Shown one piece after another: positions 1-55,895 of a DNA stretch of 64,000 nucleotides. This DNA is from Candidatus Moraniibacteriota bacterium. GTDB taxonomy: Bacteria; Patescibacteriota; Minisyncoccia; Moranbacterales; JAPLXC01. Under the pieces are notes generated by a model. That model was not told the DNA's origin, made no database searches, and saw only the letters and a program-made list of their open reading frames with translations. The stretch is taken from assembly GCA_026396275.1 (NCBI GenBank), contig JAPLXC010000019.1, positions 355 through 64,354 on the forward strand, in the 5' to 3' direction. The first letter of the stretch is position 1. Every line of letters begins with the position of its first letter. The position numbers and the translations under genes are program-made.

Positions 1-1
1 T

Positions 2-502
2 AAAAACGAGTGTCAGGTTGTTTATATTTTGTCTCGAATTAGAAAAATTTTAGAAATTAAAAATCAGAAAGATAAATACGAACTTCTTAATTTTTATTGT
101 AACTGGTCATTGCATGTTAATTTGAAATATAAAAATACAACGCAATTTATATCAAAAATGTTCGATCAATATATTGAATTTACGAAAAGTGAGAAGGATA
201 TTGCTCGCGAAATGAAATCTAATCATGCCGATTTTTTTAAGCTCAATGATTTAAAAAACGAGCTAAGGAAATTTTTTGAAGTCCATGATTTGCCATTAAA
301 CTTAGTAGATAAAAACAAATATTGGATTACTTTTATAAAGTTGCTTCTGGAAATAATTGAAGAATGTCCAGTTATTTGTATTAAAAGTTCAAAGAAAATA
401 GAAAGATTGACCCTGATAAAAAATAAAAAAGGAGATTATTGTTATAAATTTAATTTGATTAATTTAAGGCATAAACCAATCATAAAATTAAAGTTCAAAT
501 AA
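2..502 (+). CDS. Hypothetical protein, probably a C-terminal fragment; the frame is open back to the window edge and the listed start is TTG
   Basis: ORF track 29..502. No in-frame stop between positions 2 and 29. Very AT-rich coding sequence. No recognisable motif. Confidence 0.35.
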   Translation, partial: KNECQVVYILSRIRKILEIKNQKDKYELLNFYCNWSLHVNLKYKNTTQFISKMFDQYIEFTKSEKDIAREMKSNHADFFKLNDLKNELRKFFEVHDLPLNLVDKNKYWITFIKLLLEIIEECPVICIKSSKKIERLTLIKNKKGDYCYKFNLINLRHKPIIKLKFK

Positions 503-19636: not shown

Positions 19637-21346
19637 ATGAATATCAGGAAAAAAATCAAGATTAAATTTGCAGGAGTTTTATTTCTTGGCATAATTGCCG
19701 GGCTGATTTCGTATCCTCAAGCAATGAAATTCGCGCCGCCGTTTTATAATGCGCTTAATAAACTTAAGATAAATTTAGGCCTGGATCTTCAGGGCGGAAT
19801 ACATTTGGAATATAAAGCCGATGTTTCCAATGTTGAAAAAAGCAAAGTTAACGATGCTCTTCAGGGGGCGCAGGACGTGATTGAGCGACGCATTAATGCT
19901 TTTGGCGTCGGCGAACCGTTAGTGCAAACAGCGCAATCAGGAGGAGAACGTCGGATTGTTGTAGAACTGCCCGGAGTGAAAGACATTGAAGAGGCAAAAA
20001 AAAGAATAAAAGACACGCCTTTTTTGGAATTTAAAGAAGAGACCAGTCCCGAGGAATTGGCCAAAACCCAGGAATTATTCAATTCCTTGAATGAGCAGAC
20101 AAAAAAACAGGCAGAGGATATCCTTCAGCGCGCGCTGGCCAGTGAAAATCTTGAGGACTTGGCAAAGCAGTACAGTCAGGATCCCGGCTCTAAGGACCAG
20201 GGTGGTGATCTGGGTTTTGTGAAGAAAGGGATTTTTGTTCCTGAATTTAACAAAATTTTATTTGAAGAAAATTTAAAGCCGGGCGAAATTTACCCCAAGC
20301 TGGTTGAATCCCAATTCGGCTGGCATATTATTAAATTTATTGAATCGCGCGGGGAAGGGGATAATCTGGAGGTGCATAGCCAGCATATTCTTTTTGCCAA
20401 GCAGTCGGCGGAGATGGTTCCTGATTTGAAATATAAATCAACCGGGCTTTCAGGAAAAAATCTCAAAAGTGCCGCGGTGACCTTTACCAGCCAGGGCTTG
20501 AGTGAGCCGCAGGTTTCCCTGAAATTCGACGCAGAAGGGACAAAACTTTTCGCGGAACTTACTAAAAAAAATCTGGGGAAAACCATCGCTATTTATCTTG
20601 ATGGCACAGTTATTAGTGCCCCAGTGGTCCAGGCGGAAATCGCCAATGGTGAAGCTGTTATCACGGGAGATTTTTCCCAGGAGGAAGCAAAAGAATTGGC
20701 TCAACGTCTCAATGAAGGAGCGCTTCCGGTACCACTCACGTTAGTCGGCCAGCAAAGCGTGGAAGCGTCACTGGGAGCCGAATCTCTGAAAAAAAGTTTT
20801 GTGGCTGGCCTGGTGGGACTGGCGGCGGTGATGATCTTTATGATTTTTTATTACCGGTTCCTGGGAGTGGTGGCAGTGATAGCTCTTCTTATTTACACCT
20901 GCATAATGGTTTCCATCGTAAAATTATCCGGAACTTTCACTCCCTGGCCGATTACTCTTACCCTTTCCGGAATCGCCGGCTTTATTCTTTCCATCGGAAT
21001 GGCGGTTGATGCCAATATCCTGATATTTGAAAGAACTAAAGAAGAAATCCGAAGGGGGAGAGGCATTATGAACGCACTGGACGAAGGATTTAAGCGCGCC
21101 TGGACGTCCATCCGCGACGGCAATGTTTCTTCCATTATTACCTCTTTCATTTTAATTATGATGGGAACCGGCTTTGTTAAGGGATTCGCCGTGATGCTGA
21201 TTGTCGGAGTGCTGATTTCGATGTTCACGGCAGTGACGATTTCAAGAACGTTGCTTAGGGTTTTGGTGGGAGAGTGGATAATGGATAAGCTGTGGATGAT
21301 GGGGATTTCTGAAAAATCAAAAATCAAAAATCAAAATGAAAAATGA
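19637..21346 (+). CDS. secD: Protein translocase subunit SecD with an inserted parvulin-like (PpiC-type PPIase) segment
   Basis: SecD TM core. Periplasmic region contains [37 protein letters not shown]...[18 protein letters not shown]...HSQHILF. C-terminal KSKIKNQ heptamer insert. Confidence 0.85.
21311..21340. repeat. (AAAATCA)x3 heptamer repeat in frame at the secD 3' end
   Basis: Read directly. An inverted partner ttttgatatttgattttttatttttgatat lies at about 21385-21415. Confidence 0.85.
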
Positions 21347-21412
21347 CAAGGTAAAAATGATAATCGCAGTGCGATACAATAATTTTGATATTTGATTTTT
21401 TATTTTTGATAT

Positions 21413-22171
21413 ATGTTTGATATTATCTCTAAAATAAAATACGCCTACATATTCTCTGGAATACTAACAATCTTGAGCATACTTAGTTTGTTCGTTTGGG
21501 GATTGAATTTCGGCATTGATTTTAAAGGCGGAACGTTGATGGAAGTTCAGTTCAGCGCAGCTGCTCCGGGGGTCTCGGAAATTCAGGAGAAACTTAAAGA
21601 GGTACAAGTTCAGGATCTCACTATCCAGCCTAGCCAGGTAAGTTCCGTGATTTTGCGCTATTTGGCTTCAGACGAGACGCACAACGAACAAGTGCTTGAG
21701 AAACTGCGCGAATTTGATCCCGGCGCCAAACAGCTGAAAGTTGACTTCATCGGTGCTTCTGTTTCCGATCAGATCAAAAAGAACGCTATTTGGGCGATTC
21801 TGCTGGCAGTGGTGGGGATTGCGCTCTATATTGCTTGGGCTTTTCGCAAGGTCTCGCGGCCTGTTTCTTCCTGGCAATATGGGATAAACGCGGTTATCGC
21901 GCTTATTCACGACATCTTGATTACTTCTGGTGTTTTTTCAGTGCTGGGGCATTTTTTCCAAGTGGAGATCGGCGTTCCTTTTATAGCGGCGCTGCATACA
22001 TCTCTTACAGTCATTATTACGCTTCTGGCAATTTATATTTTTGGCGGGGAGTCAGTCAAATTATTTTCCCTCGCGCTTTTGATCGGGATAACTTTCGGAA
22101 CCTATTCTTCAATTTTTATCGCCTCGGCATTATTGGTTACCAGTTATAATCTAAAAGTTAAAACCCGTTAA
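21413..22171 (+). CDS. secF: Protein translocase subunit SecF
   Basis: N-terminal TM helix followed by GIDFKGGT, and a 6-TM C-terminal domain. Confidence 0.85.
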   Translation: MFDIISKIKYAYIFSGILTILSILSLFVWGLNFGIDFKGGTLMEVQFSAAAPGVSEIQEKLKEVQVQDLTIQPSQVSSVILRYLASDETHNEQVLEKLREFDPGAKQLKVDFIGASVSDQIKKNAIWAILLAVVGIALYIAWAFRKVSRPVSSWQYGINAVIALIHDILITSGVFSVLGHFFQVEIGVPFIAALHTSLTVIITLLAIYIFGGESVKLFSLALLIGITFGTYSSIFIASALLVTSYNLKVKTR

Positions 22172-25283: not shown

Positions 25284-27359
25284 ATGAAATTTTCATATAA
25301 TTGGTTGAAAGAATTAAGCGGAACGAAAAAGTCGCCAAAAGAATTGGCGGAGCTTTTGACAATGCGTTCATTTGAGGTTGAAGGAATTGAAAAAGCAAAA
25401 AGCGATAATGTTTTGGATATTAAAATACTGGCTGATCGGGGACATGATTGTTTAAGTCATATAGGAATTGCCAGGGAAATTACAGCACTCGAAGGAAAAA
25501 AATTTGTCTTACATTACGGAAAATCAAAAATCAAAAATCAAAAATCAAAAATTGTTAAGATAGATATTCAAGACAAGAAATTATGTCCTCGCTATATCGG
25601 CGCGGTAATGACGAATATAAAAATAGGGCCGTCGCCAAAATGGATGCAGGAACGATTAATTACTGGAGGATTAAGGCCGATAAACAATATAGTTGACGCA
25701 ACCAATTATGTAATGCTGGAAACGGGACAGCCACTGCACGCATTCGATGCGGACAAAATCAAAGATCAAAAATCAAAAATCAAAATTATAATAAGGAAAG
25801 CGAAAAAAGGGGAGAAAATTAAATTGTTGGATGAAACGGAAAAAGTTTTAGCAGACGATGATCTAGTAATTGCTGATTCTCAAAAAGCCCTGGCTATTGC
25901 CGGGATTAAGGGCGGGGTGGAGGCGGAAATTGGCGAGAACACCCAAACGATCGTGCTGGAAGCGGCAAATTTCAATCCGACGGCCATTCGCAAAAGCCGG
26001 ATTCGTCTGGGACTAAAAACCGATGCCTCCGACCGGTTTGAAAAAGAAATTGATCCCAATCTTGCGGAAATCGCAATGGCAAGAGTTGTCTGGATAATTG
26101 AGGAATTTGGCGGAAAAACGGAAGGAATGTTTGATGTTTATCCTTCCAAGGTGAATTCTTGGAAAATCAAGTTGGACCTGAATTATGTTAATAAACTTCT
26201 TGGAGAAAATATACCAGTCAAGGCGGTTACAAAAATATTAAAATCGCTCGGATTGCTGGTTACTGGTTACGGATCACAAGTTACGGTTACGGTTCCGACG
26301 TTCAGGATTGATTTAAAAACCCAGGAAGATCTGGTTGAAGAAATCGGAAGAATTTACGGATATGAGAAAATTAAGCCGCAAGCCCCTCACGCTCCGATTC
26401 AGGCGGCGGAGGTGAACGAGCAAAGGTTATTTGAGAGGGAGGTCAAAAATATTCTTGCGGGCAAAGGATTTTCGGAAGTGTATAATTATTCCTTCTACAG
26501 CGCGCGCGACGCGGGACTGGCCGGGCTGGGAGCGATCGAGCATCTGGAACTGGAAAATCCGATGAATCCCGATCAAGCGTTGATGCGGGTGAGCTTGATT
26601 CCTGGAATTTTGAAAAATATTAATCATAATCTGAAATATTTTGACGATTTTCGAATTTTTGAAATTGGGCGCGTATATTGGACAAATAAAACAATATTAC
26701 CTGAAGAAAAAAATATGCTGGCGGGAGCGATTGTTATGGAAGAAAGCAGCAAGAAGGAAGCATTAAGCGGAGTTGAAAAAGCAAAAGGATTTTATGAATT
26801 AAAAAGTTATGCAGATGTATTGCTAAGCAGGATAGGAATTGATGATTATTATTTTGACACTTTTGACGCGGTGCCAAATGATTCATTTTCAACGCTCTGG
26901 CACGAGGGAAGGACAGCGGAAATAAAAATAGAAGGTCATGAAAAAGCCATTGGATTTTTGGGAGAAATAAATCCTTTTTTACTGGCCAATTTTGATATTC
27001 ACAAAAGAGTGGCGTGTTTCGAATTTGATCTGGAAAAGTTGCAGGAAATATCCCAGTCGGAAAGAGAATATCAGCCGGTCAGGAAATATCCGGAAGTTAT
27101 CCGCGATATATCCATGATCGCCCGGAGCAATGTACTGGTAGACGAAATTCTAGCTGCTATTCAAAAAGCTGGAGGAAATTTAGTTCTAGATGTTGACCTC
27201 TTTGACATTTTCGATTTTGCCGACAGCACATCCAGCTACGCTTTTCACATTATCTTCGGTGCGGAAAACCGGACGCTCAAAAGCGGGGAAGTGGATGAAT
27301 TGATGAAAAAAATAAGTTCTGTGCTGGAAAAAGATTTAAAGGTTAAGGTAAGGAAATAA
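25284..27359 (+). CDS. pheT: Phenylalanyl-tRNA synthetase beta subunit, with two in-frame heptamer inserts
   Basis: MKFSYNWLKEL N-terminus plus the B3/4 and B5 domains. Inserts [12 protein letters not shown] and KIKDQKSKIKI. Confidence 0.9.
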   Translation: MKFSYNWLKELSGTKKSPKELAELLTMRSFEVEGIEKAKSDNVLDIKILADRGHDCLSHIGIAREITALEGKKFVLHYGKSKIKNQKSKIVKIDIQDKKLCPRYIGAVMTNIKIGPSPKWMQERLITGGLRPINNIVDATNYVMLETGQPLHAFDADKIKDQKSKIKIIIRKAKKGEKIKLLDETEKVLADDDLVIADSQKALAIAGIKGGVEAEIGENTQTIVLEAANFNPTAIRKSRIRLGLKTDASDRFEKEIDPNLAEIAMARVVWIIEEFGGKTEGMFDVYPSKVNSWKIKLDLNYVNKLLGENIPVKAVTKILKSLGLLVTGYGSQVTVTVPTFRIDLKTQEDLVEEIGRIYGYEKIKPQAPHAPIQAAEVNEQRLFEREVKNILAGKGFSEVYNYSFYSARDAGLAGLGAIEHLELENPMNPDQALMRVSLIPGILKNINHNLKYFDDFRIFEIGRVYWTNKTILPEEKNMLAGAIVMEESSKKEALSGVEKAKGFYELKSYADVLLSRIGIDDYYFDTFDAVPNDSFSTLWHEGRTAEIKIEGHEKAIGFLGEINPFLLANFDIHKRVACFEFDLEKLQEISQSEREYQPVRKYPEVIRDISMIARSNVLVDEILAAIQKAGGNLVLDVDLFDIFDFADSTSSYAFHIIFGAENRTLKSGEVDELMKKISSVLEKDLKVKVRK
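25521..25549. repeat. (AAAATCA)x3 in frame inside pheT
   Basis: Read directly. Confidence 0.85.
25756..25786. repeat. (AAAATCA)-type heptamer repeat in frame inside pheT, second site
   Basis: Sequence reads aaaatcaaagatcaaaaatcaaaaatcaaaat. Confidence 0.85.
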
Positions 27360-37641: not shown

Positions 37642-37678
37642 GGGTTGCTATAAATTGCGTACGCAATCCATAGCAACC
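37642..37678. repeat. Near-perfect 37-nt palindrome GGTTGCTAT-aa-ATTGCGTACGCAAT-cc-ATAGCAACC
   Basis: Self-complementary. A truncated copy lies at 2279-2304. Confidence 0.8.
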
Positions 37679-37741: not shown

Positions 37742-38353
37742 TTATTCAAATGGCAAGGGCGAGGTCTTTTCTGTTTCTTTTGACTCTGTTTTTGATAACT
37801 CGGCCAGTTTCTTTTTAAAATAGTAAAGATAGAAGGCATAAATTATGATCCCGACTTCTATTACCGTCGGAGCAAACCAGGAATTTTCCCGGCACCCGTC
37901 AAACCGGTCCCAGGCGATGAGAGCCAGTATTGTGTAGAGCGACTCCCAAAACCAGCGGAGGCGATTGTCTTTTTCAAAGCCGTAAGAAAGATTGAAAAGA
38001 ATGAGAAATAAATAAGCGCCTAGAAGAAAAACCCAAAGACCTTCCGGAAGAGAAGAACAGGGCGGTATCTTTTGTGCCACTTTTTGCATTTCTGTCTTGC
38101 TCTTTGGCTGGCTCTCTTCTTCTTTCACGACGGATGCCGCTTCCTCGTCAATGCGCGGCTCGGGATTCAAAAAAGGGGAATCAGAAGGAACTTTGGTCTT
38201 GTCAATAATGAAGTCCTCCGGAGTGTCGGCATCGGAATTTTCGCCTTCAGCGGCCAGAGAAAGAGAAGCGGGAAAAGAAAAAATAATCAGTAATGATATT
38301 ATTACTGACGCTGAAAACATGACGGCTTTATTAAAGCATCCAAACGCTCTCAT
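37742..38353 (-). CDS. Membrane protein, paralog of the 38350..39261 product (shared C-terminal 2-TM domain WFWESLYTILALIAWDRFD)
   Basis: The two C-termini align with each other. N-terminal signal/TM segment. Confidence 0.5.
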   Translation of the reverse strand: MRAFGCFNKAVMFSASVIISLLIIFSFPASLSLAAEGENSDADTPEDFIIDKTKVPSDSPFLNPEPRIDEEAASVVKEEESQPKSKTEMQKVAQKIPPCSSLPEGLWVFLLGAYLFLILFNLSYGFEKDNRLRWFWESLYTILALIAWDRFDGCRENSWFAPTVIEVGIIIYAFYLYYFKKKLAELSKTESKETEKTSPLPFE

Positions 38354-39261
38354 AATTTTTTATCATTGGGAGGGTAAGCTTCCAAATCGCTTCCGGATTG
38401 GATTTTTTTTCTGAAGAAGTAGAGATAAGCGAGATAAATGGCAAAGCCGGAAATTATAGTAGCGTAGACAAACCAAGTATTCGTCCGGCAGCGGTCAAGA
38501 TAGTACCAGCCAATAAGCGCCAAAACTGTGTAGATTACCTGCCAGAACCAGCGAATACTTTTTTGTTCCTGGAATCGATAGGAAAGAGTGAAAATCATAA
38601 GTAGCACATAAGCGGCTAGAATCAGAGCGAAAATCCACCACCTAACCGGAACACATTCTTCCTCGCCGGCTACTAGCCCTTCTGCGCCGGGTCCTGCTTC
38701 AGCGGCGGCTTCCGGTGTTACGCCTTCTTCTGTTACTGCGCCGGCGGCTTGCCCGGGGCGGTAGGGAGGCGGCGCGCCGAGAGCGGTCAAAATTCCGAAT
38801 CCGAAAACCATATCAAATTTCACTTTCTCGTCCTGAAATTCATTTCCGGCTTCCTCGTCAAATTTCACTTTTACTTCGTATCTATTGGATTCGCCGGGCT
38901 CCAGCCGTTCAATGAAAACATCTCCGGCCTTGTCCATTTCGTGGAGAGTGAACCGGTCACCCGGCCCGCCGATGAAATATTTTCCGCTGCTCTTGTCAGT
39001 GAGGTAAAATTTGAGTTCGTCCGCCAAATCGTCATTGCTGACATCGTCAATATTAAGATAAAGGTCTTCCGCTTCAGTGCCGACATTTTCCGCCCGCACT
39101 TCCTTGGTTTTGGAATATCCCGGCGCGGCGTTTTTCACGTCAAAAAGCGGATCATCTTCGGGATTAATGTCTATTTTAACTTCGGCGCAGGCATGACTGG
39201 CCATTCCCAAAACTAGCAGGGAAAATACGCCGAAAATAAATAAAAATTTTAACTTATTCAT
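38350..39261 (-). CDS. Secreted/membrane protein, paralog of the preceding gene
   Basis: Signal peptide, Ala/Gly/Pro linker, and the conserved C-terminal membrane domain WFWQVIYTVLALIGWYYLDRC. Confidence 0.55.
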   Translation of the reverse strand: MNKLKFLFIFGVFSLLVLGMASHACAEVKIDINPEDDPLFDVKNAAPGYSKTKEVRAENVGTEAEDLYLNIDDVSNDDLADELKFYLTDKSSGKYFIGGPGDRFTLHEMDKAGDVFIERLEPGESNRYEVKVKFDEEAGNEFQDEKVKFDMVFGFGILTALGAPPPYRPGQAAGAVTEEGVTPEAAAEAGPGAEGLVAGEEECVPVRWWIFALILAAYVLLMIFTLSYRFQEQKSIRWFWQVIYTVLALIGWYYLDRCRTNTWFVYATIISGFAIYLAYLYFFRKKIQSGSDLEAYPPNDKKL

Positions 39262-39319
39262 AAATTATTTCAAACCTGTTTGAAACTCGGTAACGTTATA
39301 CTGCGGCTGCGGTATAATG

Positions 39320-41308
39320 TTACGCATCTTTTGCCGAGTCATTATCTGATTTAGAATCACCTTTAGAATCATCATCTTTCTGGCTGTCTTTTTTATCCCC
39401 GTCTTTTTTCTTGTCATCATCTTCATCTTTCTTATCGCTGTCGCTATCATCGTCTTTTTGCTGGATAGCACTGGACTTTCCATCAGTTTTTTCCTCATCA
39501 TCTTCTGCCTTATCTCCCTCATCATCCTCGTCTTTCTTTACTTCGGCGGATTCTTCCTCATCGTCACCACTGTCTTTTATTTCTTCTTTAGTATCGCTTG
39601 AAGTGGTATCACCGCCGCCATCGTTATCACTGTCAATATTATCCGCGTCTTCATCCGTTCCGGCATTTTCTTCCGGCGCGGAAGCTGCCGGATCTTCGGC
39701 TTCGCCGCTTTCATCCTCGCCATTTTCTTCCGGAACGATTGCCGGCTCGTCCGTTGTTTCGGCTGTTTCATCAGTGTTATTTTCTTCAGTTGCTTCCTCG
39801 CCACTGGCGCTTTCTTCACCTACTGCTTCATCGGCATCTTCTGAATCCGCTTCTGACCCGTCGGACATTTCGGATTCCTTTTCTTCCTTTTTGTCAAAGT
39901 ATTCTTTTTCCATGAATTCTGGATCGTATTCTTCCGAAGACGGATCATTAACCGATAAATTGGCATGTCCCGGCGTTCCGAAATTCACGCCCTCGTGATC
40001 CCAATAAGTCGTGTTATTGCAATGGAAATCAACGCAAGTATGCCAGCTTCCGGAATCCAAACCGTCGCCCGGAGTATTATTTCTTTCCATTGACATTTGG
40101 AATAATATCCCATGCCAGCCAGCCGGCCAGTGTGGAGTGCCTTTGGCCTGATCAATTATGTTTACGTCTTTGTCTTTTAATATTAAATTGCCATTGTTTG
40201 AATTATAGAGAGAAATACTGTCATTCACTACATCCACATCAACGTTTAACTCCGTATTGGAACTGGTTTTGGGATAATTGGCGATGAGGAAATATCCATG
40301 GGCGGCAATTGATTCGCTTGCAGGGATTTGAATTTTATTATTGCCAGTATGCTTGGCGTTTTCAATTTCCCACTGGCCGATGTCAATTTCATGCCCGGTC
40401 ATATTGCGCAGTTCTATCCATTCGTCGGCAGTATGGCCGAAAGAACCCATCCACATCACTTCGTTAATAATCACATCCCCAGCTTTGGCTGTCACGGAGT
40501 TATTAACCTTAACGTCAATCCAATCCACGGAGTCACTGGGATTTTCCGGATCGGCCGGCACCGGCGCCAGATTCGGGCACTTGTTTCCGGCTTCGTCGCG
40601 GGCTTCCAGCTTGATCGTATAATCGCCGTCATTAACCCCGGTCGTATCCCAGTCAAAAAATTTTTTGTTGGTGAAAGAATTTGTGTCATTAACTGTTCCG
40701 GGTCCTGCAACAATGCTTCCACCGGAATTTTGGATTACCAGCCAGTAATGATGCGGGTTAGCGTCGGTGACAGTGCCGCGAATTTCAACTGTTCCGGAAA
40801 GAGTGTCCCCGTCGTCCGGATTAGTGATTTCTACAACCGGGCATTGAGTGTCCACTTTGAAACTTCCCGTAACAATATTGCTTACCCAGCTTGAATTGTC
40901 ATTATTGGCGGCATGAGCCGAAAAATCCCATTTGCCTTCCGGAACCGGGATGCAGGAGCCGGGATAGAGGTAACTTCCGCTGATTGAGCTTGAATTATGG
41001 GTGAATTCCCAGTAAATAGTAACATCGCTGATGCTCGAGGTGAGCGTAATGCAAGGCGTGCTGGCGTACCATCCGTTATCTCCATCCGGGCTTGAAGGGC
41101 TTACACTCATCGTAAGCTCCGGAATCCAATATCCCGCCGTCATCGTGTTCCCGCCGGAAATCGCCGTATCGGAAAAATAAGAATTAGTCCCGGAAACGCT
41201 GGCAAAAACAACGGCCAAAAACAAGACAGCAAAAACCGAGCCGATTTTCTTCGCCGACCGAAAAATCCTTTTATTGATTATGGATTTATATTTCTTTCTT
41301 TTCTTCAT
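39320..41308 (-). CDS. Large secreted protein with a SipW-cognate (TasA/camelysin-type) signal region, a lamin-tail domain and a long acidic low-complexity tail
   Basis: SGTNSYFSDTAISGGNTMTAGYW (SipW-cognate motif). GDVIINEVMWMGSFGHTADEWIELRNMTGHEIDIGQWEI (lamin-tail domain). About 200 aa of D/E/S-rich tail. Confidence 0.6.
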   Translation of the reverse strand: MKKRKKYKSIINKRIFRSAKKIGSVFAVLFLAVVFASVSGTNSYFSDTAISGGNTMTAGYWIPELTMSVSPSSPDGDNGWYASTPCITLTSSISDVTIYWEFTHNSSSISGSYLYPGSCIPVPEGKWDFSAHAANNDNSSWVSNIVTGSFKVDTQCPVVEITNPDDGDTLSGTVEIRGTVTDANPHHYWLVIQNSGGSIVAGPGTVNDTNSFTNKKFFDWDTTGVNDGDYTIKLEARDEAGNKCPNLAPVPADPENPSDSVDWIDVKVNNSVTAKAGDVIINEVMWMGSFGHTADEWIELRNMTGHEIDIGQWEIENAKHTGNNKIQIPASESIAAHGYFLIANYPKTSSNTELNVDVDVVNDSISLYNSNNGNLILKDKDVNIIDQAKGTPHWPAGWHGILFQMSMERNNTPGDGLDSGSWHTCVDFHCNNTTYWDHEGVNFGTPGHANLSVNDPSSEEYDPEFMEKEYFDKKEEKESEMSDGSEADSEDADEAVGEESASGEEATEENNTDETAETTDEPAIVPEENGEDESGEAEDPAASAPEENAGTDEDADNIDSDNDGGGDTTSSDTKEEIKDSGDDEEESAEVKKDEDDEGDKAEDDEEKTDGKSSAIQQKDDDSDSDKKDEDDDKKKDGDKKDSQKDDDSKGDSKSDNDSAKDA

Positions 41309-41906
41309 AATCTTTATCTAAATTCTCATTCCGTTTTTCAATGCGCTTTTTGTAATCCATCTTTTTTCTTATTTCATTCCTGATTTTCTGCATTTCGTCA
41401 TAAATTATTATCACCGCCGGAATGATTATCAGTAAAATTAATCCGGGCGTTGTTTTGGCGTAACTCACCGGATAGCCGAGAAGGGGGACAGAGATAAATG
41501 CTTTTCCCACAATTCCTTCTTTGGTGAACTTCTCGCCGTCCGGCGCGTCGTTGGCGTCTCCCTTGGTTTCAAACGCGATTTTGCCGCCTGCTTCGCCAGC
41601 CTCGCCGAGTCTAGGCGGGCCGAGTTGAGGCGAGTTAATTTCTTCTTTGCTGACGATCCGGTGGGTGATGGTTATTTTCGGGTCTCTTGTTCTTCTGGTT
41701 ATCACATCGCCGACATTGTAATCAGCCAGCGGTTTAACGAATATCAAGCTCCCTGCGTGGATCGCCGGGGACATTGACCCGGACATTACGGTAAAGACCT
41801 TATAGTTTCCCGGAAATGGAATGAATGAGAATACCACCAGAACGCCGATGAGAACGAGCGCAACCAGCAGGGTATTTACAGTGTACTTAAAAATTTTTCC
41901 GATCAT
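41286..41906 (-). CDS. sipW: Signal peptidase I of the SipW/archaeal type (S26B)
   Basis: SGSMSPAIHAGSLIFV Ser box and GDVITRRT. Confidence 0.75.
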   Translation of the reverse strand: MIGKIFKYTVNTLLVALVLIGVLVVFSFIPFPGNYKVFTVMSGSMSPAIHAGSLIFVKPLADYNVGDVITRRTRDPKITITHRIVSKEEINSPQLGPPRLGEAGEAGGKIAFETKGDANDAPDGEKFTKEGIVGKAFISVPLLGYPVSYAKTTPGLILLIIIPAVIIIYDEMQKIRNEIRKKMDYKKRIEKRNENLDKDYEEKKEI

Positions 41907-41929
41907 TTTTATTTAAACATTCAAACATC

Positions 41930-42139
41930 TTAACATTTCAACTCTTTTTTCAATTTTTCTATTTCTTTCTTCCCTTCTTCTCCAACAATTTTTCCGCACT
42001 CTGGGCAATAGCCATGAGATATTGATCCTTTCGGCACATCTTCAACGGTTCCATATTCTTTCCCGCACTTTAAACACTTCATTATTCCTTTACCAATCTT
42101 CTGTTCTGGCGGTTTTATAAAACTATTTTCTCCTTCCAT
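41930..42139 (-). CDS. Small zinc-ribbon protein
   Basis: CLKCG...CPECG double CxxC. Confidence 0.5.
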   Translation of the reverse strand: MEGENSFIKPPEQKIGKGIMKCLKCGKEYGTVEDVPKGSISHGYCPECGKIVGEEGKKEIEKLKKELKC

Positions 42140-42233
42140 ATTTGTAAATTTTGAATTTGGGATTTTGGATTTGATTTGTCATTTGACATTGGGATTTTGA
42201 ATTTCCGAAGCAGAACTTCGGTTCCTCCCTCTA

Positions 42234-42270
42234 CTTGTTACGTAACTTGTTAAGTAACTTGTTACGTAAC
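42234..42270. promoter_or_regulatory. Three tandem 12-mers CTTGTTACGTAA / CTTGTTAAGTAA / CTTGTTACGTAA upstream of the sipW operon; candidate operator array
   Basis: Read directly. The TTACGTAA palindromic core also occurs at 2209 and, as AATTACGTAATT, at about 59497. Confidence 0.45.
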
Positions 42271-42284
42271 AAAAAGAGATCGGA

Positions 42285-42860
42285 TTAGCGGTGAGGATTA
42301 TACGCATTCATAACAAAATCAAAGGTACAAGTTTTTCCTTGCAAAGTATCGCCAGCAATTGTTGGTAAGCAAACTTCATATTTAGTGGTTATTGAACTTC
42401 CTGCAATAAGCCCTCCACCGTACCATGACATTAACAGATTTGCTTCAGTTACTCCGTTAAGAGCACCGGTCGCATATGCAGTTTCACAAGTACCAGAGCA
42501 TCTTTCAATTTTTGCTGTTAAAGCGTTGCAAAGTCCTGTGTCTCCAGTAAAATCGGCTGTGCTAATTACTAATTCCTTAGCAGTTAGAGTACTTGGTCCA
42601 GCAAACCAAGGTGCGCCGTAGTTTTGAACATCAAATTCTCCTGTCTTACAATCGCCAGGAGCCATATCTGAAGCAGTAAATCCTGCTATCGTTGGCTGGC
42701 CATTTACTCTAATTTGCAAGGTTCCAGTTGCGAAACTGTTATTATCTACAGTTGCAGTAGAGCTAAATATTGCCCAGGTGGCGACGGATGCGACGGCGGC
42801 GACGGCGACGACGATTACCAAGCTCTTAATTATATTTTTCATTTCATATACACCTCCCAA
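42285..42860 (-). CDS. TasA/camelysin-like secreted protein with a SipW-cognate signal
   Basis: Signal peptide followed by AIFSSTATVDNNSFATGTLQI. Confidence 0.6.
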   Translation of the reverse strand: MGGVYEMKNIIKSLVIVVAVAAVASVATWAIFSSTATVDNNSFATGTLQIRVNGQPTIAGFTASDMAPGDCKTGEFDVQNYGAPWFAGPSTLTAKELVISTADFTGDTGLCNALTAKIERCSGTCETAYATGALNGVTEANLLMSWYGGGLIAGSSITTKYEVCLPTIAGDTLQGKTCTFDFVMNAYNPHR

Positions 42861-43089: not shown

Positions 43090-43344
43090 TTATTCTAAAC
43101 TTTTCTTTATTCTTTTTTTTAATTCTTGCAGGCCTCTCGCGTTCTTCTTTAATTTGCTTTCTCTTCTGAAAGCGTCTTCTTTTGAGTAAAACGCTTCGTA
43201 ATATCTGACTTCCCATGGTCCTCTAAATCGGGTAAATACTGATTTGTTTTGGTTATGCTTGTTTACTCTTTCTTTTAGATTGTTCGTGCAACCAATATAT
43301 ATCCCGCTATCCCTCCGGCTTTTAATAATATAAACGTAATACAT
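43090..43344 (-). CDS. GIY-YIG nuclease-domain protein (small standalone)
   Basis: YVYIIKSRRDSGIYIGCTNNLKERVNKH. Confidence 0.7.
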   Translation of the reverse strand: MYYVYIIKSRRDSGIYIGCTNNLKERVNKHNQNKSVFTRFRGPWEVRYYEAFYSKEDAFRRESKLKKNARGLQELKKRIKKSLE

Positions 43345-43595
43345 AGAATAAAAGTGGTGGGGGATAAAAACAAAACCGGCCTAAACCAACAAGCGCAGCA
43401 CTTATTAATTCAGGCCGGTTTCGCTATTTTGCTCCCCGCGCTTCACTGGCGACCAATGGTATCTTTCGTCACGAGAGTTTCTGGCGCGGATCCACGCTTT
43501 CCCGAACGGTTTTGTTTTTTTGTTTTCCTTTGTTATCTTATGCTACTATAGCGCCAGTTGAATATTCTGTCAACGAAATTATCCACAGTTTTTGG

Positions 43596-43633
43596 CTTGA
43601 CAAAAGGAAAATTTATGTTTTAATTTTTTACTG
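43596..43633. repeat. 38-bp direct repeat copy 1 (cTTGACAaaaggaaaatttatgTTTTAATtttttac), promoter-like
   Basis: About 85% identical to 44526-44564. Overlaps the stop codon of the metalloprotease gene. Confidence 0.7.
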
Positions 43634-44422
43634 ATAAATGGCAGTCACCCCATCAATATCTCCTGTTGTTAAAGTGTCTTTATTAATTTCTCCTTTAAAG
43701 CCGTAGCCGTACATTGTGTTGTTTCTATAAATTGTAGTGTATTCGTCATCCAAACCGACCCAGTGTCCAAGTTCGTGGGTCAAAATGTCTTGAGCGTCAT
43801 AGGTAACAAGATTCGGGCAGGCGGTCGGTGAAAATGGCGTCCAAGTCCAGGAAAACTTTTTGTTCATAATCGTGTCGGTTTCTACTGCCAGTCCGGTGCT
43901 TTGGTAATACCATATATAAGTAATTCCCAATGCGCTGCCGGGCGCGCTCCCAAAAGCCACTATATTTTTCCCATCCAAAGCTTTTTTTGAAAGGGTTGTT
44001 ACTCCGGCATTTTTGAAGATTACTCCCGCCGCATTAATCTCTGTACCTTGCCAAGTTTCAAAAGATAAATTCGTCAAATTACTGAACTTGGAAGAACCGA
44101 CCGAACTAGGAGCACTGCCCGCATTCAAGTAATATTTCCATTCGCCTGCCGGAAGCTCCCAGCCGGCTGGACTGACCATGGCAGTTGAATCAGGATCACT
44201 GTAACTGCATTGCAGGGGCTTGGTTTCTTTCACTTTCGGATAATGCACAAACACCCTGACTTTGAGGTTAGGATGCCCCGGCACGTCGTAAACGCCGTTT
44301 TGTTCAGGAATTGCCCAATCATCATCGGTATTGTCGTCATTTTTGGCTAAAACCGGACTTACCGACAAAACCAGCGCGGCCATTGCAAGAATCAAAGAGG
44401 TAAAAATAAGTTTTTTAAGCAT
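43628..44422 (-). CDS. Secreted matrixin-like zinc metalloprotease (metzincin)
   Basis: Signal peptide. HELGHWVGLDD (HExxHxxGxxD) and C-terminal GDIDGVTAIYQ. Confidence 0.7.
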   Translation of the reverse strand: MLKKLIFTSLILAMAALVLSVSPVLAKNDDNTDDDWAIPEQNGVYDVPGHPNLKVRVFVHYPKVKETKPLQCSYSDPDSTAMVSPAGWELPAGEWKYYLNAGSAPSSVGSSKFSNLTNLSFETWQGTEINAAGVIFKNAGVTTLSKKALDGKNIVAFGSAPGSALGITYIWYYQSTGLAVETDTIMNKKFSWTWTPFSPTACPNLVTYDAQDILTHELGHWVGLDDEYTTIYRNNTMYGYGFKGEINKDTLTTGDIDGVTAIYQ

Positions 44423-44564: not shown

Positions 44565-44570
44565 CTCATT

Positions 44571-44620
44571 CGCTATCCATCGCTATCCATATTCCACATA
44601 CTTGCGGCCGCGAATATGTG
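44571..44620. repeat. Left inverted-repeat arm: (CGCTATCCAT)x2 followed by the palindrome CACATACTTGCGGCCGCGAATATGTG
   Basis: Mirrors the right arm at 45404-45464 (CACTTATCTGCGGCCGCAAATAAGTG followed by GATAG-type repeats). Confidence 0.75.
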
Positions 44621-44727
44621 TTATACTGGATATAGGTACTTTATACAGGTATTTTATGCAGATATTTTGCGCAACAGAAAATTGCTAAGACGGCCAATAA
44701 ACAATAAACGCAAGCTGACTAAAGCTA

Positions 44728-45311
44728 TGGCAAGAAGGGAGAAAATGAAAAATGTGATCGCGAAAAATATTTTAAGCGGCACCTTGAGCGCAACGGCTTG
44801 GGCATTTGAGTTATTGATTAATGCTGGTGTTTTGACTATTGAAGCGTTTCTTAACCCGTCTGTGTACGCGGACATGCCGAGCGTATTGTATCAAAGGAAC
44901 TTTATCAAGAAGAAAAAAGCTAAGTTTCGGGAAATGACAATAAGGCAAAGCCTCTGGAGACTTAAAAGAGCTGGCTTTGTGGCTAAAAAAGAAAATAGAT
45001 ATTTTCTTACAAAAAAGGGGAAGAAACTCGCTCTTTTTGTGCGTGGCAGAAGTGATGTGATTACTAAGCAATGGGACAAGAAATACAGAGTAGTTATTTT
45101 TGATATCCCGGAAGAAAAAAAGAAAATCCGTGACTGGTTAAGGCAGGAGTTAAATATGCTGAACTACAGAAAACTCCAGGAAAGCGTTTTTATCGGCAAA
45201 TATCCTCTGCCGCAGGACCTGATTGAGAGTATTAAAGAATATAAAATAGGGAATTGTGTCAATTACCTTCTTGTTGAAAAAGTGTATAAAAACGTTGAAC
45301 AGAGCTTTTGA
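44728..45311 (+). CDS. Winged-helix DNA-binding domain fused to a Cas2/VapD-like C-terminal domain (PaaX-like architecture); start revised to MARREKMKNV
   Basis: LWRLKRAGFVAKKENRYFLTKKGKKL (wHTH-like). YRVVIFDIPEEKKKIRDWLRQELNMLNYRKLQESVFI resembles the Cas2 beta1-alpha1-beta2 core. Confidence 0.5.
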
Positions 45312-45403
45312 ATTTCCAGAGCAAGTTATGGAAATTAAAAATTAATCAGTTTGCCAAAAACGGAAAACTTTAGCTTCATTTTAAACCATTTTACACTATT
45401 TTA

Positions 45404-45464
45404 CACTTATCTGCGGCCGCAAATAAGTGTAGTAAGATAGTAAGATAGTGGGATAGTAGGATTG
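45404..45464. repeat. Right inverted-repeat arm: palindrome CACTTATCTGCGGCCGCAAATAAGTG followed by (GTAAGATA)-type tandem repeats
   Basis: Read directly. Preceded by a tandem (TATTTTACAC)x2. Confidence 0.75.
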
Positions 45465-45598
45465 TTATTGCAATCCTTGCAATTCTTACTAACTATATTT
45501 ACTTGGTTTACTTGTTGTTGGCAGAATGTAGTTTTTTTGTTGACAAAATTATATTATTGGAGTAAATTAGTAAGAGTAATCATTGATTTGTTTTTATT

Positions 45599-45907
45599 AT
45601 GCTAGCAGTCATCAAAACCGGCGGGAAGCAGTATATCGTCAAAAAAGGCGCGCGGATTAAAATTGAAAAAATTGAAGGAAAAGAAGAAAAAGCGGTAAAA
45701 TTTTCCGAAGTGCTTTTTATTGGGGACGAAAAGGGAGTAAAAATCGGGACGCCGAAAGTGAAAGGAGCAATAGTGGAAGGAAAGATTATTCAGCAGGGGA
45801 GAGGCAAAAAGGTCTGGGGCATCAAGCATAATCCCAAAAAGCGCTACAAAGTGAAATTCGGTCATCGCCAGCCGTTTACGGAGGTGGAAATCATTAAAAT
45901 CGCGTAA
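45599..45907 (+). CDS. rplU: 50S ribosomal protein L21
   Basis: MLAVIKTGGKQYIVKKG. Confidence 0.9.
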   Translation: MLAVIKTGGKQYIVKKGARIKIEKIEGKEEKAVKFSEVLFIGDEKGVKIGTPKVKGAIVEGKIIQQGRGKKVWGIKHNPKKRYKVKFGHRQPFTEVEIIKIA

Positions 45908-45949
45908 CCTGTAACCTATAACCTGAAACGATTTTTGGAAAATTTAAAA

Positions 45950-45981
45950 CACCTGGCAAGAATTTTTGTCAGGTGTTTTTT
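45950..45981 (+). terminator. Rho-independent terminator after rplU (CACCTG...CAGGTG followed by TTTTTT)
   Basis: Hairpin plus T-run. Preceded by the tandem repeat taacctg-taacctataacctg. Confidence 0.7.
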
Positions 45982-47171: not shown

Positions 47172-47301
47172 AAATTTTAGTGAATTTTGAATTGAGAATT
47201 TAGAATTTTGAATGGGAATACTGAATAAATAATTTAGATTCTATTTCCAATATTCTATATTCCAATTCTAAATTCCATATTCCAAATTCACAATTCTAAA
47301 A

Positions 47302-51577: not shown

Positions 51578-51664
51578 TTAGCTTTATTAGCTTTATTAGC
51601 TTTATTAGCTTGTTAGCGAAAGTTAATCTAATAAAGCTAACCAAGCTGAAAGCTAAGAAGCTAA
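51578..51664 (-). promoter_or_regulatory. cysS 5' leader built from (TAGCTTTAT)x3 plus an inverted partner, forming a long hairpin; closely related to the dnaK leader
   Basis: The reverse complement ends ...ttaactttcgctaacaagctaataaagctaataaagctaataaagctaaATG. Compare the dnaK leader ...ttaactttgaagctaatcaaactaacaaagctaatgaagctaataaagctATG. Confidence 0.6.
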
Positions 51665-55301: not shown

Positions 55302-55895
55302 GTGAGAAAGAGTAACGACAAAATTATGACCAAGAAAAAAGAAAAAGAAGAAGATGTAATAAAGGAACAGGATATTGAAAAAGCCGCTAAAGAAGAAATT
55401 GAACTTGCTGAAGGCGAGGTTGAGGCGGAAAAGATCGACAAAAAGGTGCACGAAGAACTGATAAAAACAGCAGAAAATTATATTTCCGGCTGGAAACGCT
55501 GCCAAGCCGATTTTGAAAATTATAAAAAAGACCAGGCGCGAAGAATGGAGGAATTTCGAGAGTTCGCCACTCTGGACTTTGTGTTCCAAATTTTTCCGGT
55601 GTTAGATAGTTTTGAAAGTTCACTCACTCATGTTCCTGAAGACCAGAAAGAAAGCGCGTGGGTCGGCGGGATATTGCATATAAAAAAGCAGCTAGAAGAG
55701 CTTTTAAGGAATAATAAGGTAGAGGAGATTGAAGCCAGAGCCGGAGATGAGTTTAATCCGGAGGTGCATGAAGCCGTAAAACAGGAATCAGGAATCGCGA
55801 ATCAGGAATCAGGAAATAAAATAAGTAAAGTTTTGCAGAAAGGATACAAAATGGAAAAAAGAGTGATTAGACCGGCAAGAGTAATAGTAGAATAA
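55302..55895 (+). CDS. grpE: Nucleotide exchange factor GrpE (listed start is GTG; the true start may be the ATG at 55326)
   Basis: RCQADFENYKKDQARR and a conserved C-terminal domain. In-frame (AGGAATC)n insert. Confidence 0.85.
   Translation: MRKSNDKIMTKKKEKEEDVIKEQDIEKAAKEEIELAEGEVEAEKIDKKVHEELIKTAENYISGWKRCQADFENYKKDQARRMEEFREFATLDFVFQIFPVLDSFESSLTHVPEDQKESAWVGGILHIKKQLEELLRNNKVEEIEARAGDEFNPEVHEAVKQESGIANQESGNKISKVLQKGYKMEKRVIRPARVIVE
55783..55817. repeat. (AGGAATC)x5 heptamer repeat in frame inside grpE, encoding QESGIANQESGNK
   Basis: Read directly. Confidence 0.85.

What the first reader, a model, noticed from the sequence alone, without database searches (positions are those of the whole stretch)
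44571..45464. Winged-HTH plus Cas2/VapD-like gene flanked by inverted repeats with GCGGCCGC-core palindromes
A ~195-aa ORF fuses a winged-helix-like N-terminal region to a C-terminal segment (YRVVIFDIPEEKKKIRDWLRQELNMLNYRKLQESVFI) resembling the Cas2/VapD beta-alpha-beta core. This is the architecture of PaaX-like regulators. It is bracketed by mirror-image modules: (CGCTATCCAT)x2 + CACATACTTGCGGCCGCGAATATGTG on the left, and CACTTATCTGCGGCCGCAAATAAGTG + (GTAAGATA)n on the right. No CRISPR array or other cas gene is present. The unit, about 890 bp with terminal inverted repeats and internal 26-nt palindromes, looks like either a miniature mobile element carrying a DNA-binding or nuclease-like gene, or a regulator flanked by its own operators. 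One of these would then control the adjacent rplU promoter. Either reading is unusual.
Basis: partly seen in the sequence, partly recalled or inferred. Interest (0 to 1): 0.7.

Follow-up and report, generated by a model that had tools for sequence, protein, structure and literature searches.

The report
Cas2-like DNA-binding gene bracketed by operators
A small DNA-binding protein with a Cas2-like domain sits between two copies of its own probable binding site, a layout kept across a whole superphylum of tiny bacteria; it looks like a self-regulating gene and not a mobile element, but what else it does is unknown.

Summary
ORF 44729-45311 (+) encodes a winged-helix domain plus a Cas2-like ferredoxin domain. 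This is the N-terminal and middle part of PaaX, without the ligand-binding C-terminal domain. Two related palindromes with a GCGGCCGC core flank it (44595-44620 and 45404-45429); these are the only two GCGGCCGC sites in 64 kb.

The new result is comparative. The protein belongs to a large Patescibacteria (CPR) family of about 190-aa proteins (2,117 clusters). Most of the homologues examined (30-63% identity) have the same bracket: a palindrome over the promoter and a matching one just after the stop codon. The sequence is the same within a locus and differs between lineages. The centre is usually CGRYCG, and in the closest clade the half-sites TACAC/GTGTA sit at a fixed distance.

Neighbouring genes vary, but synteny holds within sub-clades. 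No dispersed copies, transposase or viral relatives were found, so mobility is unlikely. Mismatches show no RNA-type wobble bias, and the left palindrome folds no better than shuffled sequence.

Best reading: an autorepressor bracketed by two of its own operators. The geometry resembles the long PaaX operator. The flanking short tandem repeats are a genome-wide intergenic habit. Control of rplU is not supported. The strictly conserved Cas2-type residues remain unexplained.

The parts
44595..44620 (.). Upstream palindrome P1, CACATACTTGCGGCCGCGAATATGTG. Proposed operator covering the -35/spacer region of the gene's own promoter.
   Evidence: 11 of 13 pairs. Its right half matches the clade consensus (GTGT at +11..+14, centre CGG|CCG). 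As single-stranded DNA it folds no better than shuffles (z=-0.9).
44619..44627 (+). Extended -10-like element TGtTATACT, abutting P1. Inferred promoter of the gene.
   Evidence: Read from the sequence. The consensus scan does not list it because the -35 is poor. Orthologues carry TATAAT/TATACT at the same edge of the upstream palindrome.
44729..45311 (+). Gene for the 194-aa winged-helix + Cas2-like (PaaX_M) protein. An alternative start at 44747, behind AAGGGAG, gives 188 aa.
   Evidence: (identical to NCBI MAG Candidatus Moranbacteria protein NT136_04155).
45402..45431 (.). Downstream palindrome P2, TACACTTATCTGCGGCCGCAAATAAGTGTA, starting 91 nt after the stop codon. Proposed second operator.
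   Evidence: 14 of 15 pairs. It matches the clade consensus TACACTT..C..CGG|CCG. DNA hairpin z=-3.1. No T-tract follows it.
44570..44590 (.). Tandem repeat (TCGCTATCCA)x2.1, left of P1. Generic intergenic repeat, probably not part of the unit.
44630..44668 (.). 13-nt tandem repeat x2.5 in the 5' untranslated region.
45378..45407 (.). 10-nt tandem repeat (ATTTTACACT)x3, running into the left arm of P2.
45430..45462 (.). 8-nt tandem repeat (TAGTAAGA)x4.1, right of P2. Generic intergenic repeat.
45540..45568 (+). Sigma-70-like promoter of rplU (TTGACA-17-TAAATT), about 110 nt downstream of P2 and not overlapped by it.

Best explanation
The gene encodes a dimeric DNA-binding protein, a 'mini-PaaX'. 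It has an N-terminal winged helix and a Cas2-like domain that serves as the dimer core. It lacks the ligand-binding C-terminal domain of PaaX.

The two palindromes are its own binding sites. The upstream site covers the -35/spacer region next to an extended -10, so the bound protein would shut off its own promoter. PaaX does the same at Px.

The downstream site lies just past the stop codon and is a second operator belonging to the same unit. It most likely works with the upstream site, either as a DNA loop or as a roadblock. Either way it would insulate the tightly auto-controlled gene from transcription of its neighbours.

The unit is an old chromosomal module, vertically inherited and found across Patescibacteria.

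Shown: the fold, the family, the conserved bracket, the fixed half-site geometry, and co-variation of the sites with the protein lineage.

Inferred: binding, repression, and the role of the downstream site.
For: Fold and family:
- PaaX_M plus winged helix.
- Best structural match is PaaX 8a39, then Cas2.
- The family has 2,117 clusters at E<=1e-10, nearly all 160-230 aa.

The bracket is conserved:
- In 43 of 78 non-redundant homologous loci, the segment shared between the upstream and downstream flanks scores above every cross-locus control.
- By eye, most of the shared segments carry a CGGCCG, CGATCG, CGGTCG or CTATAG centre.
- Of 56 strict core-type palindromes in 464 kb of loci, 47 lie within 300 nt of the tblastn match to the gene and 7 more just upstream of the ORF start. 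Only two, both upstream of the gene in L045, lie further off.

Protein-like site geometry:
- In the closest clade the consensus is TACACTTT-N-C-NN-CGR|YCG-NN-G-N-AAAGTGTA, with CAC fixed at -13..-11.
- Information is high at the centre and the half-sites and low at +-4, 5 and 7.
- E. coli PaaX uses a similarly long operator, TGATTC-N27-GAATCA, and represses its own promoter by hindering RNA polymerase (PMC9493321).

Promoter overlap:
- Upstream palindromes abut or contain TATAAT-like hexamers in orthologues.
- In distant members the palindrome sits 15-20 nt upstream of a -10 that lies 6-9 nt before the ATG. The mRNAs would be leaderless and the palindrome would cover the -35.

Specificity:
- Paralogues in one MAG have different palindromes (L020/L021, L016/L050, L026/L042, L033/L044).
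- Sub-families with a similar recognition helix share centre types.

A DNA rather than RNA constraint:
- Mismatches are 18 G.T-type against 13 A.C-type on the sense strand, plus 26 transversions.
- P1 is a poor hairpin.
- In L083, L095 and L001 the inner arms are asymmetric, yet the asymmetry is the same in both copies.
Against: No binding or expression data exist, and the promoter is inferred.

The arms are mirror-symmetric along their whole length, out to +-18. A dimer's contacts alone would not need that. It leaves room for a cruciform or hairpin, or for homogenisation between copies.

A regulator whose only visible targets bracket its own gene has no obvious benefit to the cell. Extra sites were seen only in L084/85, L002 and L045. 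Whole genomes could not be searched.

The Cas2-type residues (FDIPE, R135, R139, Q151, S153, V154) are 91-100% conserved in an unbiased sample. That is more than a dimerisation scaffold would seem to need.

The distance between the two sites (about 650-810 bp) shows no fixed phasing.
Confidence: 0.6

Rival explanations
1. The Cas2-like domain is an active nuclease that the winged helix brings to the palindromes. The unit would then be a single-protein toxin or defence module with fused auto-repression, or a site-specific nicking system acting at its own flanks. It would not be a plain regulator.
For: The C-domain profile matches complete type II-A Cas2 chains (6jhz, 8ia4, 6qxf, 5zyf; E 2e-4 to 4e-3) and VapD 3ui3. 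The aspartate at the end of beta-1 (D126) and R135, S153 and V154 are 96-100% conserved in 133 representatives found without a word filter. Sequence similarity to Cas2 is stronger than to PaaX-like 3kfw (E=0.63). From my own recollection, not checked here: these positions correspond to residues needed for Cas2 nuclease activity.
Against: No partner antitoxin or defence gene is conserved next to it, and the neighbours are housekeeping genes. PADLOC matches only Cas2 models over about 40 residues. Conserved residues in Cas2 are also retained where nuclease activity is dispensable (PMC6452270). This rival is compatible with the operator model rather than exclusive of it.
Confidence: 0.15
2. The palindromes act as RNA or single-strand hairpins: terminators, stabilisers or an RNA-level feedback target of a Cas2/VapD-like RNase. 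The matching sequences of the two copies would then come from gene conversion.
For: Downstream copies start 0-60 nt after the stop codon, so they should be transcribed. Many are perfect 15-28 bp stems. Mirror symmetry extends over the whole arm, including low-information positions. The downstream copy is present whether the next gene is co-directional or convergent.
Against: There is no wobble bias: 18 G.T-type against 13 A.C-type mismatches, and 26 of 57 mismatches are transversions. No T-tracts follow the palindromes, whereas ordinary terminators in the same window have them (45946-45979). Upstream copies lie upstream of the inferred -10 and so outside the mRNA. P1 folds no better than shuffles. 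The centres are themselves self-complementary (GGCC, GATC, TATA), which a hairpin loop would not need.
Confidence: 0.12
3. A miniature mobile or selfish cassette. The two palindromes are element ends recognised by the encoded protein, and the unit moves as pal-gene-pal.
For: The bracket stays with the gene although the neighbours differ (rplU, GlyRS, GroEL, secG, PBP and others). In L002 there are at least 7 copies, with a duplicated palindrome-plus-spacer unit. In L084/85 the unit lies between a retroelement reverse transcriptase and an rve integrase.
Against: The 64-kb window holds one copy. There are no relatives on viral contigs. No transposase, recombinase or HUH domain is present. No target-site duplication is visible. 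Synteny (module - small gene - GlyRS - two genes - M16 peptidase) is conserved in L001, L083, L094 and L095 at 54-61% protein identity to the window protein, and module-secG adjacency (by my reading of the translated downstream ORF) holds in L005, L006 and L084. Divergence of the sites tracks divergence of the protein.
Confidence: 0.06
4. Coincidence: ordinary intergenic palindromes or terminators that happen to flank the gene.
For: About 50 palindromes with at least 10 matched arm positions occur in the window. The window's own upstream/downstream similarity is only just above the control 95th percentile.
Against: The family-wide recurrence with lineage-specific sequence rules this out. So does the restriction of core-type palindromes to the flanks of the gene.
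Confidence: 0.01

Closest known systems
PaaX, the phenylacetyl-CoA-responsive repressor of the paa genes (E. coli, Pseudomonas; PDB 8a39, 3l09)
   Same: It has the same N-terminal winged helix and the same central Cas2-like domain, and it is the best structural match. PaaX uses a long inverted-repeat operator (TGATTC-N27-GAATCA) and represses its own promoter by occlusion (PMC9493321).
   Different: The window protein has no PaaX_C domain (194 aa against about 305 for chain 8a39) and so no known effector pocket. TIGR02277 scores 30 bits against a cut-off of 264.55. No paa genes are nearby. The host is a Patescibacteria bacterium. By sequence the central domain is nearer to Cas2 than to the PaaX-like PDB chains. 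A second operator after the stop codon is not described for PaaX.
Cas2, the CRISPR adaptation subunit, and the VapD toxins
   Same: The ferredoxin-like fold matches. So does the sequence signature FD(I/L/M)P...R...FRk.L...GF...Q.SV(Y/W), including the aspartate at the end of beta-1. TIGR01573 scores just above its cut-off.
   Different: Here the domain is fused to a winged helix. No Cas1 gene and no CRISPR array are present. The 'repeats' are two operator-like palindromes 809 bp apart with the gene between them, not an array with spacers. No VapX-like partner is present.
Repressor genes flanked by operators that cooperate by looping (for example lambda cI between OL and OR, or lac O1/O2). Cited from general knowledge.
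   Same: The repressor gene lies between, or close to, two sets of its own palindromic operators, and one of them overlaps its promoter.
   Different: Looping is not shown here. The spacing is not phased. The arrangement is a single-gene unit conserved across a superphylum, not a phage immunity region.
REP/RAYT and IS200/IS605 elements, whose genes are flanked by hairpin-forming palindromes. Cited from general knowledge.
   Same: A single gene is bracketed by palindromes that its product might recognise.
   Different: There is no HUH/Y1 domain. No dispersed palindrome copies were found in 64 kb plus five distinct 20-kb loci. Synteny is stable.

Membership tests
PaaX family repressor (TIGR02277 / Pfam PaaX + PaaX_M + PaaX_C) | N-terminal winged-helix DNA-binding domain | tested here: met
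   PF07848 E=0.03 and HTH_45 E=7.7e-4, both below cut-off. The model shows helix 69-81 and wing 85-94, and aligns to PaaX 8a39 over 195 columns.
PaaX family repressor (TIGR02277 / Pfam PaaX + PaaX_M + PaaX_C) | Central Cas2-like (PaaX_M) domain | tested here: met
   PF20803: E=3.5e-16, 59.5 bits against a cut-off of 24.
PaaX family repressor (TIGR02277 / Pfam PaaX + PaaX_M + PaaX_C) | C-terminal helical effector domain (PaaX_C) and full-length equivalog score | tested here: not met
   The protein ends right after the Cas2-like domain. There is no PaaX_C hit. TIGR02277 scores 30 bits against a cut-off of 264.55.
PaaX family repressor (TIGR02277 / Pfam PaaX + PaaX_M + PaaX_C) | Association with phenylacetate catabolic (paa) genes | tested here: not met
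   The neighbours are a metalloprotease-like gene, rplU, recR and dnaB in the window, and GlyRS, TGT, secG and others elsewhere.
PaaX family repressor (TIGR02277 / Pfam PaaX + PaaX_M + PaaX_C) | Long inverted-repeat operator overlapping its own promoter | tested here: inconclusive
   The sequence layout fits. Binding and the transcription start were not measured.
Cas2 (CRISPR-Cas adaptation) | Cas2 ferredoxin-like fold with conserved beta-1 aspartate | tested here: met
   Foldseek hits to 5zyf, 8ia4, 5xvn and 3exc. The profile hits Cas2 chains over their full length. D126 is 100% conserved.
Cas2 (CRISPR-Cas adaptation) | Encoded next to cas1 and a CRISPR array | tested here: not met
   The window has no CRISPR-like array. 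The called neighbour genes in nine loci include no cas genes. The window's other ORFs were not scanned one by one.
VapD-type toxin-antitoxin module | Adjacent small antitoxin gene in the same operon | tested here: not met
   No conserved partner ORF exists. The gene is bracketed tightly by the palindromes.
Insertion sequence / MITE / REP-RAYT-type mobile element | Multiple copies or dispersed repeats in a genome, a transposase, and target-site duplications | tested here: not met
   There is one gene copy and two palindromes in 64 kb. No extra copies lie within +-10 kb in L083 or L093-L095. No transposase domain is present. Synteny is conserved. Whole genomes could not be searched.
Intrinsic (Rho-independent) terminator | GC-rich hairpin followed by a T-tract | tested here: not met
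   P2 is followed by TAGTAAGATAG. The terminator scan does not list P1 or P2. Downstream copies in other loci also lack T-tracts.

The most novel reading that the evidence does not exclude
In the CRISPR-poor Patescibacteria, a stand-alone Cas2 homologue has been fused to a sequence-reading winged helix. It stays permanently paired with two palindromic repeats that bracket its gene. The invariant Cas2-type catalytic-position residues would mean that it cuts or nicks nucleic acid at or near these repeats. It would then be a one-gene toxin/defence switch or a repeat-directed nuclease. It could also show how Cas2-like proteins came to be associated with palindromic repeats without Cas1.
Probability: 0.12. 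Interest if true: 0.85.

Novelty: new variant of a known kind. Interest (0 to 1): 0.55.

Why it matters
Patescibacteria have tiny genomes and few recognisable regulators, and no genetics exists for them. This work links one widespread protein family (2,117 clusters at 50% identity) to a defined DNA motif, purely by comparison. The pairing can be tested directly with EMSA and reporter assays.

The layout has one operator over the promoter and a second just after the stop codon. It is retained down to 30% protein identity. I found no description of such a cis-architecture for PaaX-like proteins in the searchable literature.

The middle domain is closer in sequence to type II-A Cas2 than to the PaaX-like PDB chains, and it keeps the Cas2 signature residues. 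The family therefore also bears on how Cas2-like domains are used outside CRISPR. If the domain proves catalytic, the module would be a new kind of repeat-associated nuclease.

Tried and rejected
- Metagenome scan for the window's palindromes (CACNTANNTGCGGCCGCNAATANGTG): no hit.
- Second metagenome scan, for the L002/L086 palindrome: six hits, all in unrelated GC-rich contigs with no family gene nearby. Genome-wide copy numbers could therefore not be obtained.
- Viral contigs: no relative of the protein.
- Rfam, at gathering threshold and at permissive E-values: nothing at the palindromes or in the gene's leader.
- Replication origin or iteron idea: rejected. GC skew follows gene strand with no switch at the locus, the context differs between genomes, and the short tandem repeats occur genome-wide.
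- Intrinsic terminator idea: rejected, because no T-tracts follow the palindromes.
- Integron attC-like cassette idea: rejected. It is always the same gene family that is bracketed, and no R'/R'' core sites are present.
- Literature searches combining PaaX with Cas2, 'Cas2-like', CPR or Patescibacteria: no paper.
- PADLOC and PHROGs: only partial Cas2 and generic winged-helix hits.
- Sequence search of PDB with the single C-terminal domain: uninformative. The profile search was needed.
- P0052 could not be located in the contig index.
- Caveat: the invariance of VVIFDIPE in the loci is partly by construction, because that peptide was the search pattern. It was therefore re-tested on HMMER-found representatives.
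- Caveat: the mirror-covariation test at +-1..15 is biased, because the sites were chosen for symmetry. Only +-16..18 are unbiased.
Full report
**1. What is in the window**

ORF 44729-45311 (+) encodes 194 aa. A second ATG at 44747 follows a good Shine-Dalgarno-like AAGGGAG and would give 188 aa.

The gene lies between a metalloprotease-like gene on the minus strand (43628-44422) and rplU (45599-45907). The exact protein is on record as a hypothetical protein of a Candidatus Moranbacteria MAG.

Two palindromes flank the gene:
- P1, CACATACTTGCGGCCGCGAATATGTG, at 44595-44620.
- P2, CACTTATCTGCGGCCGCAAATAAGTG, at 45404-45429 (14 of 15 pairs when extended to 45402-45431).

They are 79% identical to each other over 33 nt. 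They contain the only two GCGGCCGC sites in the 64 kb.

**2. The protein**

- Pfam gives PaaX_M ('PaaX central Cas2-like domain') at E=3.5e-16 for residues 114-188, and weak winged-helix hits for residues 67-102. No PaaX_C domain is found.
- NCBIfam gives PaaX far below its cut-off (30 against 264.55 bits). It gives Cas2 (TIGR01573) just above its cut-off (27.2 against 24.5 bits), over the first 40 model positions.
- An AlphaFold model built from 26 homologues has mean pLDDT 84. [quoted passage not shown]
- Foldseek against the PDB ranks E. coli PaaX 8a39 first (E=1.5e-5, 195 columns). PaaX-likes 3l09 and 3kfw follow, then many Cas2 chains.
- A profile of the C-terminal domain alone hits type II-A Cas2 chains over their whole length (6jhz, 8ia4, 6qxf, 5zyf; E 2e-4 to 4e-3) and VapD (3ui3). 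The PaaX-like 3kfw reaches only E=0.63.
- The shared signature is FD(I/L/M)P...R...R.L...GF...Q.SV(Y/W).
- I checked conservation in 133 family representatives found by HMMER without any word filter. D126 is 100% conserved; R135 and S153, 99%; P128 and E129, 98%; F125 and V154, 96%; Q151, 93%; R139, 91%.
- The family holds 2,117 clusters (50% identity) at E<=1e-10. Nearly all of the best 150 are 160-230 aa long.

The protein is thus a short PaaX-like form: winged helix plus a Cas2-like domain.

**3. The palindromes are a family trait**

I fetched 80 loci from species-representative genomes. All are Patescibacteria MAGs or MAGs mislabelled as other phyla. I added further loci by exact-protein look-up.

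In the orthologues (39-63% identity), almost every locus has a long palindrome upstream and a matching one downstream of the gene. The sequence changes from lineage to lineage:

| Locus | Palindrome |
|---|---|
| L006 | ATTATACACTTTCCGTCGGCCGACGGAAAGTGTATAAT |
| L007 | ...CACTTTCCTGCAGTTGCAGGAAAGTG... |
| L004 | TTATACTCCGGCCGGAGTATAA |
| L019 | GTGACGTTTATCTCACGGCCGTGAGATAAACGTCAC |
| L020 | TATTACACATGACGACGATCGTCACAATGTGTAATA |

The same holds for distant members at 28-45% identity.

Statistics:
- For 78 non-redundant loci I scored the best ungapped segment shared by the upstream and downstream flanks. The mean is 23.0.
- The control paired the upstream flank of one locus with the downstream flank of another. 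Its mean is 8.8 (sd 1.7, maximum 19).
- 43 loci exceed the control maximum. By eye, most of the shared segments carry a CGGCCG, CGATCG, CGGTCG, CGACCG or CTATAG centre.
- Of 56 strict core-type palindromes in 464 kb of loci, 47 lie within 300 nt of the tblastn match to the gene. Seven more lie just upstream of the ORF start. Only two, both upstream of the gene in L045, lie further off.
- Even-centred palindromes with at least 12 of 14 matches have these centres in about 70% of cases.

**4. Anatomy of the site**

I aligned 47 candidate sites from the closest clade on their dyad centre; three of these look spurious and were dropped before the covariation test below. The consensus is TACACTTT-N-C-NN-CGR|YCG-NN-G-N-AAAGTGTA. 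CAC sits at -13..-11 in almost all lineages.

Information is highest at the centre (1.5-1.6 bits) and at the half-sites (about 1 bit). It is lowest at +-4, 5 and 7. P2 fits this consensus well. P1 fits on its right half.

Mirrored positions co-vary at every distance. This includes +-16 to 18, which lay outside the window used to pick the sites: 40, 34 and 31 of 44 complementary, against 18, 15 and 18 expected.

A dimeric protein and a hairpin would both predict this symmetry. The following points favour duplex DNA read by a protein:
- Mismatches show no wobble bias on the sense strand: 18 G.T-type, 13 A.C-type and 26 transversions.
- The centres are themselves self-complementary.
- In L083, L095 and L001 the inner arms are not symmetric, yet the same asymmetry appears in both copies and in the same orientation.
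- As a single strand, P1 folds no better than shuffled sequence (z=-0.9). P2 gives z=-3.1.
- Paralogues within one MAG carry different palindromes.
- Sub-families with similar recognition helices share centre types. For example, the 'ARFNYQTKTALGRL' group goes with CTATAG.
- L005/L006 and L007/L084 have nearly the same recognition helix and identical outer arms. Their 10-bp cores differ, and the core changed in concert in all two or three copies.

**5. Position relative to promoters and neighbours**

In the window, P1 is followed directly by TGtTATACT (44619-44627), an extended -10. P1 would therefore occupy the -35/spacer region (inferred).

Orthologues have TATAAT or TATACT at the same edge. 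In distant members the palindrome ends 15-20 nt before a -10-like hexamer. That hexamer lies 6-9 nt before the ATG. This implies leaderless mRNAs and an operator over the -35.

Downstream copies are centred 14-60 nt after the stop codon and lack T-tracts. They are present whether the next gene is co-directional (17 loci) or convergent (13 loci). They therefore belong to the unit and not to the neighbour's promoter.

In the window, P2 lies about 110 nt upstream of the rplU -35. rplU is the neighbour only here and, at a distance, in L002.

**6. Mobility**

The neighbours differ across the family. Within sub-clades, however, the neighbourhood is conserved:
- Module - small gene - GlyRS - two genes - M16 peptidase, in L001, L083, L094 and L095.
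- Module - secG, in L005, L006 and L084; in L005 and L006 the secG call rests on my reading of the translated downstream ORF.

There is one gene copy in the window and no relative on viral contigs. No extra palindromes lie within +-10 kb in L083, L093, L094 or L095.

Extra copies do exist in three places:
- L084/85 has a third site 2.86 kb upstream, in front of a diversity-generating retroelement cassette.
- L002 has at least 7 copies, including one 1.6 kb away.
- L045 has three copies in the upstream spacer.

This pattern suits a regulator with few targets. It does not suit a transposable element.

**7. The short tandem repeats**

TRF lists 89 rows (about 60 arrays) of 7-14-nt repeats across the window, concentrated in intergenic spacers. 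The repeats beside P1 and P2 are part of this general habit.

Other loci also have such repeats, but with unrelated sequences. They are not 'mirror-image modules'.

**8. Comparison with known systems**

E. coli PaaX binds TGATTC-N27-GAATCA and represses its own Px promoter by steric hindrance (PMC9493321). That gives a precedent for a 30-40-bp dyad operator read by a winged-helix/Cas2-like dimer.

The present family is not a PaaX equivalog. It has no PaaX_C domain, no paa genes nearby, and a sub-threshold score. It is not a CRISPR Cas2 either: there is no cas1 and no array.

I found no paper that links this family to palindromes.

**9. Verdict**

The most likely reading (about 0.6) is an autorepressor bracketed by two of its own operators. 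The downstream site would act as a loop anchor or roadblock.

Three things remain unexplained: the full-length symmetry of the sites, the benefit of a regulator with almost no other visible targets, and the near-invariant Cas2-type residues. These keep open a nuclease or toxin reading (about 0.12-0.15).

I rate this a new variant of a known kind, of moderate interest.

Noticed in passing
window, whole length (e.g. 5209-5239, 5623-5741, 6889-6921, 8843-8871, 12626-12658, 21310-21423, 25520-25552, 25755-25785, 47181-47300, 51578-51611, 55782-55815): Short tandem repeats with a 7-14 nt period and 2-7 copies fill many intergenic spacers of this Moranbacteria contig. AAAATCA recurs at three places. 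Their function is unknown. They explain the repeats next to the palindromes.
   Followed up: partly
window 39290-39323: The palindrome GTAACGTTATACTGCGGCTGCGGTATAATGTTAC has a core one base away from GCGGCCGC. It is a strong hairpin (z=-4.9). It lies between the stop of the LTD-domain gene (39320-41308, -) and the start of the next gene (38350-39261, -). It could be a third, diverged site of the same regulator or an unrelated intercistronic hairpin.
   Followed up: partly
window 2284-2307 and 37643-37678: The same 24-mer (TATGGATTGCGTACGCAATTTATA) occurs at both places in opposite orientation. It is a palindrome with a CGTACG centre. This is a second palindrome family in the window. No wHTH-Cas2-like paralogue is present in the window (tblastn).
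   Followed up: no
L084/L085 7121-7165, 9926-9967, 10636-10678: This Moranbacteria genome has three copies of its palindrome. One precedes a cassette with a reverse transcriptase and bAvd (a diversity-generating retroelement), and two bracket the regulator gene. An rve integrase gene follows. It is the clearest candidate for an extra regulated target.
   Followed up: partly
L002 2394-5110: At least seven copies of a 32-nt palindrome (TAACAC..CCGCGGCCGCGG..GTGTTA) lie 85-105 nt apart. A unit of about 110 nt (palindrome plus spacer) is duplicated upstream and downstream of the gene. One copy lies next to small secreted-protein genes. A Mu Gam-like gene sits between the unit and rplU.
   Followed up: partly
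L025, L029, L038, L040, L059 (upstream 30 nt of the gene): In distant family members a -10-like hexamer (TAAGAT, TAGAAT, CATACT) lies only 6-9 nt before the ATG. These genes are probably transcribed as leaderless mRNAs.
   Followed up: no
window 38350-42860 (-) and L094 5517-8605: A cluster of a camelysin/Peptidase_M73-like protein, a signal peptidase I-like protein and a large LTD-domain secreted protein lies about 2 kb from the module in the window. A similar cluster lies directly upstream of the module in L094. In the window its upstream spacer holds a 12-nt x3.2 repeat (42233-42270).
   Followed up: no
window 43090-43344 (-) and 43405-43510 (-): There is a small GIY-YIG-like ORF of 84 aa (YVYIIKS...IYIGCTNNLKERVNKHN). 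Next to it is a sub-threshold Rfam match to the c-di-GMP-II-GAG riboswitch (27 bits against 40, E=0.036), which is probably chance.
   Followed up: no
L020/L021, L017/L023, L016/L050, L026/L042, L033/L044, L049/L077: Six MAGs carry two paralogues of the family. In four pairs each paralogue is bracketed by its own, different palindrome. In L049/L077 the two palindromes are similar. L023 looks frameshifted.
   Followed up: partly
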